A stretch of DNA of 62,754 bases, filler included, from Chrysochromulina tobinii (lineage: Eukaryota), in assembly GCA_001275005.1 (NCBI GenBank). It is 6 parts of 6 records of this genome, joined end to end, with 100 filler letters (N's around TTAATTAATTAA, not from the genome) between each part and the next. Parts side by side here need not be neighbours in the genome. Positions count along the whole stretch, not along the records: positions 49,878 to 56,672 come from JWZX01001186.1; 5 more parts are not named here. One strand, 5' to 3'. The translations under genes were made by a program, and so were the position numbers. The notes under the pieces are model-generated. The model was not told where the DNA came from and did no database searches. It saw only the letters and a list, made by a program, of their open reading frames with translations. Of the stretch, positions 52,161-56,772 are shown piece after piece (the stretch's first letter is position 1; each line of letters begins with the position of its first letter).

Positions 52161-52985
52161 ATGTTGGCGTTCGCTGCGGCTGTTGCGACGGTGCTGGCGA
52201 TGCTCCTCGGACTTGTCTTCCTCCTGGCACGCCGTGCTGCCAACGGCGCGATCGCGCCGCCACGTACGCTCACTCAGCATACAATATATGCGGCCAACCT
52301 GACCTTCCCGGAGAAGCTGGGTGCCGCCTCGAAGCGGGCGGGCCAAGTGGCCGCTCGCTTCCTGGCGAAGCGGAATATAGCCGATTTGCACTTTCTCATT
52401 TCGGAGAAAGAGATCAACGAGCTGGTGTGGCTGCTACGCGCGAACGGCATCCGCGTGCTCCACGACATGGATGTGGCGGCCCTCGTCGAGATTCACCTCG
52501 AGGTCCACAAGGATACACGCGCAGCGATGATGATGGCACGTGCGAAGCGCAACTTGGCGGGAATTGGCGCACACGACGCCGACCTCGAGTACCCGATGAG
52601 CATCGCTCCGGATGTCGTGGCAAAAACCATGGCAACCTACATCGCTGCGGAGGCGGACCAAGAGATGACGCCGGGAACTGAGCAGCCGGCAGCAGACTAT
52701 CCAGATGGTGTCGCTGCATCCCCCAAGGAGCAGAGCAGCTGGAGTTCGACAAAGAGTCCGCCAATCGACCATGCTCCCTTAAAGAATCCGCCAGAGGGGG
52801 CGCCAATTGCAGAGGGTCAGCTGGTGACGCACAAGCCTCGGACCATGTCCGAAGCTGCTGACCGACGCAAGCTCTTGGTCGGAGTGGACCCTGAGGGCAA
52901 GCCAAGCTACGTGCCTGGCTGGGCCGTGAAGCACGCGGCCGCCCGGGCTCGTGGCATCTCTTCCGGGGTAGTAGGCACGGGGTGA
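52161..52985 (+). CDS. Hypothetical protein with N-terminal signal/anchor
   Basis: MLAFAAAVATVLAMLLGLVFLLARR; divergent from the preceding ORF. Confidence 0.5.
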   Translation: MLAFAAAVATVLAMLLGLVFLLARRAANGAIAPPRTLTQHTIYAANLTFPEKLGAASKRAGQVAARFLAKRNIADLHFLISEKEINELVWLLRANGIRVLHDMDVAALVEIHLEVHKDTRAAMMMARAKRNLAGIGAHDADLEYPMSIAPDVVAKTMATYIAAEADQEMTPGTEQPAADYPDGVAASPKEQSSWSSTKSPPIDHAPLKNPPEGAPIAEGQLVTHKPRTMSEAADRRKLLVGVDPEGKPSYVPGWAVKHAAARARGISSGVVGTG

Positions 52986-53668
52986 GCCTCTGACGACGGA
53001 AGCGCGAGTCGGCAGCGGCGTAAGATTGAGTGCTGTGGCGCACTGTGCACAGAGCCAGTGAACCCCCCCATTGATGTGTGGGCCGATCAAGTGGCGCGCG
53101 AATTGGGGGGGAAGGGGGGACGTGGATATGGAATGTGTTGACGTTGGGACGGAACGGGGGGATGGGATGGGCGCTGTGTTCCGGATGTGAAACCCGTGGT
53201 TCTTTCGCTATGAGAGTATGAGAGCACCATGTGTCTATGTAGTACATGTATGTTGTCTTTTTGTGTCGCAGCAGACTGAGACTCGCTCGCACGCAACACG
53301 AAGCTCGATCGGCGACGCTGTGTGGCTCGTACGTTCATCTTCATTTCAGAATGGCATCCCAAATATGGGCCGTGGGTCGACGCCCAAATTAATCAACTTT
53401 GATCGACCTGGTAACCATTTTTGGCACTTTGGGATTGCACTTGACGAGCACAACAATTCTCTCGCACGTCTGGACTTTCCACAGCCGCGAGGACGATCAA
53501 CCGCGACGAATCCGCAAATGTGCAAAGCACCCAATCTTTGCCGACGCGTCACGTCTTTGCGCGTCCCCCTATGAGCCACTCTGCGCTGGTGCGCGCTGGC
53601 GCCGTTCCGCTGCCTGCCTGCCTGTGCAAGGCGCCGCGCCGCCGGCAGCGTCGGAGTCGGCCGCCACC

Positions 53669-56600
53669 ATGAGCGGCGTGAGCTTCCGCTACTCGGAGGC
53701 GGGCGTGCGCAAGGTGCGCCGCGTCCAGTTTGGCATCCTCGGTCCCGTGGAGCTGAAGGCGTCGTCGATGTGCAATATCGTCACTGACCGCACCTTTGAG
53801 AAAGGCAAGCCCATCCCTGGCGGGCTCATGGACCCGGCGCTCGGCGCCATCGACCTCCTCCTGAACTGCGCAAGCTGCGGCATGGACTCCTTTGAGTGCC
53901 CGGGTCACTTCGGGCACCTGGAGCTCACGAAGCCCATGTACCACGTCTCCTTCCTCATCACGACGCTCAAGGTGCTGCGCTGCGTTTGCTTCTCGTGCTC
54001 GGCCATCCTTGGCGACCAGCCAGCCGAAGACGGCAAGGCAAAGCTCGTGCTCGTCGAGGCGAATGCTAAGGTCGATGCGGCCGAGGTGAGACGAAACTCG
54101 AGATCACTCGAGATCGTGCCTCCCTGATTGGCCTATGATTGCCTCTGATTGCCTCCGATGACACGCTGATGGCCTCCCTCATCATCTCGCAGGCCGATCG
54201 GATCGCCGACCGCGCCGCGCAGCAGAAGCAGCTCGCCAAGGCCAACGCACAACTCGAATCGATCGCCAGAAAGCTCGCCGAACGCGACGAGCAGCTTGCC
54301 TCCACGCAGAGCTCGCTCGAGGACGCGCGTGCGGCGCTCGCGACCGAATCCGAGCGCGCGAAGAAGCTCGACTGATTGCCACTAATTGCCACTAATTGCC
54401 ACTAATTGCCACAGGTGCGGCGCTCGCGACCGAATCCGAGCGCGCGAAGAAGCTCGGCTGATTGCCACTAATTGCCACTAATTGCCACTAATTGCCACAG
54501 GTGCGGCGCTCGCGACCGAATCCGAGCGCGCGAAGAAGCTCGAGGCCGCCCTTGGGGCCACCAAGGAGCAGTCACGCCACCTACGCGAGCAACTGGACGC
54601 CGCCGCGGAGGCCGAGTCGAGACGGGAGGCAATGCATGCGGCACAGCTCGCGGAGCAACAAGACTTGCTGCATCGGATGAGTGCGCTGCGCTCCCCAACT
54701 GATGGCGACTGATGGCGACTGATGGCGACTGATGGCGACTGATGGCGACTGTTTGCCACTGATGGCCACGCATGGCCACTAATTGCCACTGATTGCCACC
54801 GATGGCCACCGATTGCCACGAATTGCCACTAATTGCCACTGATGGCCACTGATGGCCACCGATTGCCACTAATTGCTACAGGTGCGCGCCTCTCCCAGCT
54901 GAAGAGCGCCGAGACGAGCGCGCGCCTCTCGCTCATCGAGCAGCAGACCCTCCAGCGCGAGCAGCAGCATCAGCAGCAGCAGCTCCTACTCACCCAGAGA
55001 TCGTCGACGCAGACAGCTCCGCCGCCGCCGCCCACGATGGCGCGCGCCGTCCTGAGCGCCGAGGCGGACGAGGAGGAAGACGAGGACGAGGCCCAAGGCG
55101 GCGCCCACGACGGCGCGAGCGCGACGAGCCGCCAGATAGAGCAGCTGCAGCAGGCCGTCGACGCCGCCTCCTCTGCCCTGGCGCACCATGCGGCGGCGGC
55201 GCACCAGGCCACTGGCGCCCACGACGGCGGCGAGACGAGCGTGCGGCAGGCGGCGGTGGCGGCCCACCAGTACGAGGTGCTCGCGACGGCGCGCTCGACG
55301 CCGCCGCACCGCGTGCGCCGGCAGCTCCTCGATGCGCAGCTGGCGGAGCAGGTGCCTGCACTCGAGGCGGCCGTCCAGTCCCAAGCGGTCGAGCTGGCCG
55401 AGGCGCGCGCGCAGCTGGCGACACTCGCGGCGCAGGCCAAGCTGAGTGCGAAGAGCTCGGCGGACGAGATGCGCGCAAAGTCTCGTCAACTCGAGGAGGC
55501 GGAGCGGCGCTGGCGTAACCACCAGCACGACGGCGAGACGAAACTCAGATTGCTCGACGAGCAGGTGAGGGCCTCTGATGGCCTCTGATGATGGCGAGAC
55601 GAAACTCAGATTGCTCGAGGGGCAGGTGAGGGCCTCTGAGGGCCTCTGATGATGGCGAGACGAGACTCAGATTGCCGTTGATTGCAGGGGTGAGTCCAAG
55701 TCGGAGCTGCATGCCGAACGCCTCTGATTGCCACTGATTGCCACTGATTGCCACTGATGACCACTGATTGCCACTGATGACCACTGATTGCCGTTGATTG
55801 CAGGTGCGCCTCCTCTCGTCCAAGTCGGAGCTGCATGCGGCCCTCGCGGAGGTGTCGACGCGCCTCTCGGCCGCCCAGCTGGCCGAGTCGTCGATGCGCC
55901 ACCGGCTGGCTGAGGCCGAGGTCCAATTGATCGCCGCCGAAGCGCGCGAAGCCGAGCTCTGGGCGGCCTCGGACGCGCCGTCCTGGGCGGCCTCGGACGC
56001 GCCGTCCTGGGCGGCCTCGGACGCGCCGGAGCATGGGGCGGTCGAGCGCCGTCCTGAGCGTGGGCCCGGCGCCGCCGACGGGGGGATTTCGTCAGGCCAT
56101 GTCCTTCCTAATAAGGCAGGTCATGACCAGAGCGTCGTGATGGGCGCCAGGGAGGCCAAGGCGAGTGCCCACCACGACGCTCATGCTGGGCGCACCGGCC
56201 GCGCCGGCGGGCGCGGCGCTCGCCGTGCCAGCGGCGGCGCCGACGCCATCAGCAGCAGCGGCGGCGGCGGCGGCGGCGGCGGCGGCAGCGGCGCCCATCA
56301 CGGCGCGCGTGGCGTCGGGCTGAGCGTTGTGACGGGCAGCAGCGCCAACGTGCAGCAGCGGTTGACCGAGTCCCTGCTACTCAAGCAGCGCGATGAGATC
56401 ACGTCTCTTAAGAAGCGTCTCGCGGCCGTCGCGGTCGCGGAGCAGGTGAGCGGCGCGCGAGCGGAGCAGGAGACAGAGTTGCATGCTGATGGCCTCTGAT
56501 GACCCTTGATTGCCCCCCCCCATCAGGTGAGCGGCGCGCGAGCGGAGCAGGAGACGGAGTTGAATGCTGATGGCCTCTGATGATCCTTGATTGCCCCCCC

Positions 56601-56672
56601 CATCAGGTGAGCGGCGCGCGAGCGGAGCAGGAGACGGAGGTGGCGACCCTCTCCCGCCATCGCGCGCACTCG
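53669..56672 (+). CDS. Chimeric gene: RPB1 N-terminal (clamp, Zn-binding) fragment fused to a coiled-coil protein; exons 53669-54085, 54193-54328, 54501-54680, 54882-55564, 55804-56445, 56607-56672 (truncated)
   Basis: GCCGCCACCATG start; VRRVQFGILGP, GGLMDP, CASC..ECPGHFGHLEL, LRCVCFSC are RPB1 domain-1 motifs; five GT-AG introns all keep the frame (phases 0,1,1,0,0). Confidence 0.75.
54371..55800 (+). repeat. Intronic 10-bp tandem repeats (CTGATTGCCA / CTAATTGCCA / CTGATGGCGA variants)
   Basis: Tracts at ~54371-54412, 54457-54498, 54699-54879, 55723-55800; degenerate versions in introns 54086-54192 and 56446-56606. Confidence 0.92.
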
Positions 56673-56772
56673 NNNNNNNNNNNNNNNNNNNNNNNNNNNN
56701 NNNNNNNNNNNNNNNNTTAATTAATTAANNNNNNNNNNNNNNNNNNNNNNNNNNNNNNNNNNNNNNNNNNNN
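56673..56772. other. Artificial contig-joining spacer
   Basis: 44 N + TTAATTAATTAA + 44 N. Confidence 0.98.

What the first reader, a model, noticed from the sequence alone, without database searches (positions are those of the whole stretch)
53669..54328. First ~115 aa of RNA polymerase II RPB1 fused in-frame to an unrelated coiled-coil protein
Seen: RPB1 domain-1 motifs with intact Zn ligands (CASC..C.GH, then CFSC) stop at ~54015. The same exon then continues into a coiled coil, and no later RPB1 motif (e.g. NADFDGD) appears in the remaining 2.6 kb. Inference: either a chimeric gene that captured the RPB1 5' end (promoter, Kozak ATG, clamp fragment), possibly a clamp mimic, or a chimeric contig.
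Basis: partly seen in the sequence, partly recalled or inferred. Interest (0 to 1): 0.72.

Follow-up and report, generated by a model that had tools for sequence, protein, structure and literature searches.

The report
Young RPB1–coiled-coil chimeric duplicate gene
In a Chrysochromulina alga, a copied start of the RNA polymerase II gene is joined in frame to the copied back part of a likely centriole or flagellar coiled-coil gene; the join is transcribed and spliced, but the polymerase piece is likely decaying, so this is probably an ordinary young chimeric duplicate.

Summary
The fusion is real. The junction has its own contig in 3 of 3 DNA runs. It is also in 3 of 3 RNA runs, each with intron 1 spliced. 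Seven of 10 cluster proteins carry it.

Both parents exist elsewhere: an intact 1725-aa RPB1, 99.65% identical to Chrysochromulina parva, and a native MSP/ASH-like coiled-coil gene whose first ~700 codons are replaced. Flanks are unrelated over up to 10 kb and depths fit one extra locus, so this is a chimeric duplicate. A second, clearly pseudogenised RPB1 chimera likely shares its ancestry.

A clamp mimic is unlikely. The piece has 6 amino-acid changes against at least 2 silent ones (pN/pS ~0.9), five at strongly conserved sites. It lacks half of zinc site 2 and the Spt5-binding coiled coil. Most likely RPB1's 5' end works as a captured promoter and start codon for a headless coiled coil, with little selection on the RPB1 residues. 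New member of a known kind.

The parts
53348..53546 (+). Upstream flank shared (patchily) with the second, pseudogenised RPB1 chimera (locus B) but not with the intact RPB1 locus
   Evidence: blastn of L005 upstream to window 53348-53668, 76% with indels; L002 upstream matches only from 53547
53547..53668 (+). 122 nt copied from directly upstream of RPB1 (5' UTR and likely core promoter; about half of the 230-nt gap between RPB1 and its divergent neighbour)
   Evidence: 95% identical to L002 upstream; intergenic length; RNA contigs cover from about 53610 while 52900-53523 has no RNA cover. Promoter role is inferred.
53669..54042 (+). RPB1 codons 1-124 (+2 nt), with E27V, V34M, N45K, R63L, S75F, N97I relative to intact RPB1
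   Evidence: Pfam PF04997; graph fork after 54042; residues of C. parva RPB1 P0089; conservation in 28 homologs
54042..54053 (+). Junction: 12 nt matching the native coiled-coil exon just upstream of the resumed match, followed by an in-frame 27-nt deletion between 4-nt direct repeats; 1 nt shared with RPB1
   Evidence: a 10-nt match inside the RPB1 piece is an alternative template
54050..54085 (+). Rest of exon 1, collinear with the native coiled-coil gene
   Evidence: native path enters the graph at 54050 in 3 of 3 DNA runs; L007, L008, L010
54086..54192 (+). Intron 1, GT-AG, spliced in RNA
   Evidence: joint 54083-54191 (cut +2) in X12 and X13; spliced contig in X17
54193..54328 (+). Exon 2 (coiled-coil-like); 6 differences from the culture-type native copy
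54501..54680 (+). Exon 3 (predicted from GT-AG sites and frame)
54882..55564 (+). Exon 4 (predicted)
55804..56445 (+). Exon 5 (predicted)
56607..56672 (+). Start of exon 6 (predicted); frame open at the contig end
   Evidence: 708 codons, 0 stops; N-linker begins at 56673

Best explanation
This is a real, transcribed and spliced chimeric duplicate gene in a Chrysochromulina parva-like alga, in which a copied RPB1 5' end likely serves only as promoter and start codon for a copied, headless coiled-coil gene, while its RPB1 residues likely drift without selection. Shown: the junction in DNA and spliced RNA; both intact parents at other loci; a third genomic neighbourhood; six amino-acid changes in the RPB1 piece. 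Inferred history: (1) a 5' part of RPB1 with 122 nt of upstream DNA was duplicated and began to decay; (2) it was copied again, giving locus B (RPB1 to about codon 891, with stops and frameshifts, fused to another spliced gene) and this locus; (3) here it was joined, likely by microhomology-type break repair, into an internal exon of a duplicate of the MSP/ASH-like coiled-coil gene, and the frame was kept. Inferred product: a protein of more than 708 residues with a poorly folded 124-residue leader and a coiled-coil tail that has lost its Ig-like head. Any effect would come from the tail, not from the RPB1 piece.
For: Junction contig 54013-54079 at depth 54.9/50.2/43.7 in X1/X2/X3; shared RPB1 piece 127/115/139; downstream coiled coil 98/73/76; unique upstream 41.2/47.6 in X2/X11. 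This fits 3 RPB1 5' ends and 2 coiled-coil copies. RNA junction contigs in X12, X13 and X17, with intron 1 spliced and no RNA cover over 52900-53523. 7 of 10 cluster members carry the junction, 17 contigs by the table. L001 and L011 are further assemblies of it. Intact RPB1 in L002, 1725 aa, no stop, 99.65% to C. parva P0089. Native gene in L008: 709 codons upstream of the resumed match, 0 stops. The upstream stretches (about 10 kb each) of the four loci are unrelated apart from short intron-type repeats and the promoter-proximal DNA. T53958 is in the window and L001 and in 0 of 6 RPB1-continuing loci that cover it. RPB1 piece: 6 replacement / 2 silent, pN/pS 0.94; L002 against L009 over codons 126-938: 0 / 6; Fisher p 0.0097. 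Among 28 homologs position 34 is V in 28, position 63 R or K in 28, position 27 E or D in 27. The recombinant clamp was built from three polypeptide parts, and Spt5 binds yeast Rpb1 residues 279-292 (PMC3094117, passages).
Against: Only contigs, no raw reads, were available. Most runs and assemblies may be one culture. Counts are small, and single silent differences may be hidden in collapsed contigs, so pN/pS is an upper estimate. A second control, L002 against L004 over codons 126-270, gave 7 replacement (one a stop) / 3 silent, because L004 shares decay with locus B or is a mosaic. All six zinc ligands and the reading frame are kept, and both junction events keep frame (about 1 in 9 by chance). 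That locus B carries the same five changes rests on a roughly 2:1 allele depth in 4 of 4 DNA runs, not on phased reads. Exons 3-6 are predicted and the 3' end is unseen. No protein evidence.
Confidence: 0.75

Rival explanations
1. Selected young gene: the RPB1 promoter gives a new expression pattern to the coiled-coil tail, and the tail has a job (for example a competitor of, or supplement to, the native centriolar protein).
For: Frame open over 708 modelled codons. Differences among coiled-coil copies lean silent and the indels seen are in frame or intron-like (L007 against window 5 silent / 3 replacement over 1035 nt). In 3 of 3 RNA runs the junction contig passes 54050 unbroken, whereas DNA contigs break there for the native path; this is a weak hint that the fusion supplies most RNA at this exon.
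Against: The silent excess may be inherited allelic variation: L010, with the native 5' end, matches the fused copy at 6 of 6 exon-2 sites. At about 1-3% silent divergence an open frame is not surprising. Assemblies are mosaics. Contigs show presence, not absence.
Confidence: 0.15
2. Clamp mimic or decoy: the RPB1 piece folds its zinc ribbon and binds Pol II partners or assembly factors, tethered by the coiled coil.
For: Zinc site 1 ligands are intact; the gene is transcribed.
Against: pN/pS about 0.9 with changes at strongly conserved positions; the CWSC pair at 157/160 is missing; the Spt5-binding coiled coil and the other two clamp parts are missing (PMC3094117).
Confidence: 0.04
3. Heterozygous rearrangement (one allele of the coiled-coil locus fused by translocation or a large insertion) in a diploid or two-clone culture, not an extra locus.
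For: One native and one fused copy at similar depth. Only about 10 kb upstream could be compared, and the DNA downstream of the gene was not seen.
Against: The intact RPB1 allele, the native 5' end and the unique flank all lie at the same depth of about 40-50, and two contig headers give coverage 43.5 and 41.3; a diploid should put RPB1 at twice that. C. tobin is reported as likely haploid (PMC4580454, passages). The fused copy differs from both culture-type parents, so it is unlikely to have arisen in this clone.
Confidence: 0.05
4. Assembly chimera.
For: Assemblies of this region are demonstrably mosaic: L002 carries the five derived residues inside an otherwise C. parva-identical RPB1, and L003 mixes in stops. 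The window's haplotype in exon 4 is also mixed.
Against: The junction 31-mers exist at unique-flank depth in DNA and in spliced RNA; the junction has 7 letters that are contiguous in neither parent; both parents have their own continuing paths.
Confidence: 0.01

Closest known systems
Chimeric gene duplicates (Katju 2012, PMC3449122; passages seen), e.g. Drosophila Sdic
   Same: Built from duplicated parts of two donor genes, both donors identified and intact; fits the review's route of secondary fusion of earlier partial duplicates.
   Different: Donors are not neighbours within the DNA seen; no sign of selection on the 5' donor; found in a haptophyte and with an essential housekeeping gene as donor.
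RPB1 (Pol II largest subunit) of Chrysochromulina parva, P0089
   Same: Residues 1-124 identical but for six positions; zinc site 1 kept.
   Different: About 93% of the protein is absent, including NADFDGD (residue 467) and the CTD; cannot be a polymerase subunit.
Plant Pol IV/V largest subunits NRPD1/NRPE1 (PMC11194755; passages seen)
   Same: RPB1 duplicates whose C-terminal part likely came from a gene fusion.
   Different: They keep the catalytic domains and metal A site and are ancient; here only the first 124 residues survive and they are decaying.
Native MSP/ASH-like Ig domain plus long coiled-coil protein of flagellated eukaryotes (L007/L008; relatives in Spongospora, Bigelowiella, Astrephomene)
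   Same: Donor of everything after the junction; same frame and the same introns where compared.
   Different: The fused copy lacks the first ~700 residues, including the Ig-like head and a conserved motif near residue 313 that I recall as centlein-like (recalled, not tested).
Tinkering loci (bioRxiv 10.64898/2026.08.09.743762; abstract and outline seen)
   Same: Dispersed duplicated gene fragments that are re-transcribed and form composite proto-genes.
   Different: No cluster of fragments or transposon was shown at this locus; the repeated element here is one donor (RPB1 5' end), not one receiving region.

Membership tests
Chimeric gene duplicate | Sequence derived from two or more donors, at least one genic, donors identifiable | tested here: met
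   RPB1 donor L002 and coiled-coil donor L007/L008/L010
Chimeric gene duplicate | Donor genes remain intact in the same genome | tested here: met
   Both parental paths exist in the same DNA runs; L002 ORF 1725 aa; L008 5' part 709 codons without stop. L007 shows one TAG that L008 and L010 lack. The 3' end of the native gene was not seen.
Chimeric gene duplicate | Separate genomic locus | tested here: inconclusive
   About 10 kb upstream unrelated among the four loci; downstream flank unseen; whole genome not held
Chimeric gene duplicate | Transcribed as one spliced RNA across the junction | tested here: met
   X12, X13, X17 contigs; 30 letters on the RPB1 side, contigs only
Chimeric gene duplicate | Translated and functional | not testable with these tools
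   No proteomics or genetics
RPB1 / Pol II largest subunit | Catalytic NADFDGD, domains 2-7 and CTD | tested here: not met
   No such motif in the window; only PF04997 profile positions 2-110 of 312
RNA polymerase clamp (mimic) | Zinc site 1 ligands C67, C70, C77, H80 | tested here: met
   ligand assignment recalled from yeast Rpb1
RNA polymerase clamp (mimic) | Complete zinc site 2 and the Spt5-binding clamp coiled coil | tested here: not met
   CWSC at 157/160 and everything after residue 124 absent; binding site at yeast 279-292 (PMC3094117)
RNA polymerase clamp (mimic) | Purifying selection on the piece | tested here: not met
   6 replacement / 2 silent, p 0.0097 against intact RPB1; small counts
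MSP/ASH-domain coiled-coil protein (parent) | N-terminal MSP/ASH-like domain | tested here: inconclusive
   Parent scores below cut-off (E 0.025 and 0.062); 2 of 13 relatives scanned pass the MSP cut-off. Absent from the fusion.
Centlein-like proteins (parent) | Sequence homology to named centlein | not tested
   Motif conserved in 6 of 10 relatives examined; the likeness to centlein is recalled only, and no named centlein was returned

The most novel reading that the evidence does not exclude
The RPB1 5' end acts in this alga as a repeatedly mobilised promoter-and-start cassette that spawns transcribed chimeric genes (this locus, locus B, a 42-bp shard, other decayed copies). This fusion is then a functional young gene whose headless coiled coil modulates centriole or flagellar assembly.
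Probability: 0.12. Interest if true: 0.62.

Novelty: new member of a known kind. Interest (0 to 1): 0.34.

Why it matters
It is a well-resolved case of gene birth by chimeric duplication in a haptophyte, with both donors, the junction scar and spliced RNA in hand, and it appears young enough to study as a segregating variant. The practical lesson is firmer. Decayed RPB1 copies appear to outnumber the real gene at its 5' end, so short-read assemblies write five wrong residues into an otherwise intact RPB1 (L002 against C. parva). That can mislead marker-gene phylogenies and metatranscriptome counts. If the tail proved functional, it would be a young centriolar regulator driven by a captured housekeeping promoter.

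Tried and rejected
The records behind L001, L002, L005, L007, L008 are not searchable, so flanks beyond about 10 kb stayed untested. Homolog search with exon 4 among proteins of 399-2000 aa: no hit at E 0.001 among 7990 candidates; weak evidence. No fused RPB1-coiled-coil protein of 245-2000 aa appeared among 31 hits; this says little because cluster representatives can hide it. Viral contigs: no relative of the fusion or of the two upstream ORFs, so no support for a viral or Polinton-like carrier. ESM Atlas: native exon 1 gave only unnamed clusters at 0.90-0.92 with recognition below threshold; the 487-aa upstream ORF scored 0.76, uninformative. Single-sequence AlphaFold of exon 1: pLDDT 29, uninformative, not used. 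My heptad score was inconclusive. My first reading, a heterozygous allele in a diploid, was dropped. The idea that the 7-nt filler is untemplated was dropped. L004 was rejected as an intact-RPB1 control beyond codon 125. RNA contig depths (derived allele 39.9 against 17.5 in X17; 29.7 against 8.1 in X13) cannot rank expression and were not used for that. Earlier scan notes: nothing in 3 look-ups. Paper searches found no report of this fusion (listings only; open-access library only; supplements not read).

Full report
Setting. The window is several contigs joined by N-linkers; the finding lies on a 6.8-kb contig, 49878-56672. No whole genome is held. The RPB1 of this organism is 99.65% identical to that of Chrysochromulina parva, so the host is C. 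parva or a very close relative.

Observation. From ATG 53669 the frame encodes RPB1 domain 1 (PF04997, E 1.6e-31; best solved matches are Pol II RPB1) and then unrelated sequence. No NADFDGD or CTD heptad occurs in the window. GT-AG introns give a six-exon model of 708 codons without a stop, open at the contig end. Only intron 1 is confirmed by RNA.

Is the junction real? Seventeen of 21 listed runs hold the stretch; I laid 7 of them, all kept as contigs. The graph forks after 54042. One fork continues as true RPB1; the other is the window's junction. A second path, the native 5' end of the coiled-coil gene, enters at 54050 in 3 of 3 DNA runs. Depths in X1/X2/X3: junction contig 54.9/50.2/43.7, shared RPB1 piece 127/115/139, downstream coiled coil 98/73/76. 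The unique upstream flank is 41.2 and 47.6 in X2 and X11. This fits three RPB1 5' ends and two coiled-coil copies, with the caveat that contig depth is not a copy number. In RNA the junction has a contig in X12, X13 and X17, and intron 1 is spliced in all three, while 52900-53523 has no RNA cover in X12 and X13. These contigs carry 30 letters on the RPB1 side, one short of the tool's bridging rule, because the graph forks there. Seven of 10 members of the protein cluster carry the junction, on 17 contigs by the table. Many of these may be one culture.

The loci. One metagenome scan returned 13 loci. L001 and L011 are the fusion. L002 holds a 1725-aa RPB1 without stops or introns. L005 and L006 are a second partial copy (locus B): RPB1 to about codon 891, with a 312-nt deletion, frameshifts, a stop at codon 240 in L006, and a 99-nt insert in L005 that L006 lacks, then running into another gene. 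L007, L008 and L010 are the native coiled-coil gene; in L008 709 codons precede the resumed match. Its first exon scores weakly for MSP and ASH domains. It has 57 relatives at E 0.001 or better, among them long proteins of Spongospora, Bigelowiella and Astrephomene; a centriole or flagellar role is inferred. The roughly 10 kb upstream of the fusion (myosin-like and other host-type ORFs, named by eye), of RPB1, of locus B and of the native gene are unrelated. The fusion shares 122 nt with RPB1's upstream DNA and a further ~200 nt only with locus B and with L009.

Junction scar. The 12 letters at 54042-54053 match the native exon just upstream of the resumed match. The simplest reading is a join with 1 nt of overlap, then an in-frame 27-nt deletion between 4-nt repeats. 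A 10-nt match inside the RPB1 piece is an alternative template. Both look like microhomology-type repair (inference).

Selection. C. parva RPB1 and five other assembled proteins of its cluster have E27, V34, N45, R63, S75, N97 (6 of the 7 members with an N-terminus, the seventh being L002 itself). The fusion has V, M, K, L, F, I. Among 28 homologs V34 is invariant, position 63 is R or K in 28 and position 27 E or D in 27. The count is 6 replacement to 2 silent (pN/pS 0.94), against 0 to 6 for L002 against L009 over codons 126-938 (p 0.0097). A second control with L004 gave 7 to 3, but L004 shares locus B's stop. The derived allele lies at 73-90 against 46-50 for the conserved one in 4 of 4 DNA runs, so two of three copies carry it; I infer these are the fusion and locus B. 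That majority explains why L002 has five derived residues in an otherwise C. parva-identical protein. I97 is seen only with the junction, though some junction assemblies have N97.

Mechanism. A decaying duplicate of the RPB1 5' end likely supplies promoter, 5' UTR and ATG to a duplicated tail of the coiled-coil gene. The 124-residue leader is unlikely to act as a clamp. It lacks the CWSC pair at 157/160. A recombinant clamp was built from three polypeptide parts, and Spt5 binds yeast Rpb1 residues 279-292 (PMC3094117, passages). The fused copy differs from both culture-type parents, while L010 matches it at 6 of 6 exon-2 sites, so it likely predates this clone and is about as old as allelic variation in the species. 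C. tobin is reported as likely haploid (PMC4580454, passages), which fits the depths.

Comparison and verdict. It meets the definition of a chimeric duplicate (PMC3449122, passages). It differs from NRPD1/NRPE1, which keep the catalytic core (PMC11194755, passages). Four searches of the open library found no report of this fusion (listings only). It is a new member of a known kind, real and expressed but probably near-neutral. The recurring reuse of the RPB1 5' end is the part most worth following.

Noticed in passing
L005:10274-12700 and L006:120-2500: A second RPB1 chimera (locus B): RPB1 to about codon 891 with frameshifts, a stop and a 312-nt deletion, then another intron-containing gene; L006 lacks the intron-like stretches of L005, as a spliced transcript would.
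   Followed up: partly
L002:10124-10497: The full-length RPB1 assembly carries the five derived residues of the decayed copies, i.e. it is likely a majority mosaic; a trap for RPB1 phylogenies from these assemblies.
   Followed up: yes
window 53905-53946: A 42-bp RPB1 piece also sits inside unrelated DNA at another locus (depth 37-41 in 3 DNA runs; entry side also in RNA run X17).
   Followed up: no
window 53532-53637: An RNA contig in X12 shares this 5' region with 6 differences and then runs into a different ATG-led sequence, suggesting a further gene with a related leader.
   Followed up: no
window 54329-54500, 55565-55803, 56446-56606; L010 exon 4; L005 inside RPB1: Introns look made by tandem duplication of the exon start (periods 86, 61, 81). 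L010 has an extra intron-like insert in exon 4, and locus B has one inside normally intronless RPB1: possible ongoing intron gain.
   Followed up: partly
window 50384-52129 (-) and 52161-52985 (+): Divergent pair of intronless orphan ORFs directly upstream, one with repeated cysteine motifs; no Pfam hit of note, no viral-contig relative. Could be a mobile element; not shown.
   Followed up: partly
L004 and L009: Other haplotypes with decayed RPB1 sequence: L009 has a frameshift at codon 62 with C67F and C77G; L004 shares Q240* and other changes with locus B. Decayed RPB1 duplicates seem wider spread than this fusion, or these are mosaics.
   Followed up: partly
P0050: A junction-bearing protein with all six ancestral RPB1 residues; either an older allele of the fusion or an assembly mosaic.
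   Followed up: no
L007:9366-9368: In-frame TAG in the native coiled-coil gene in one assembly, CAG in L008 and L010.
   Followed up: partly
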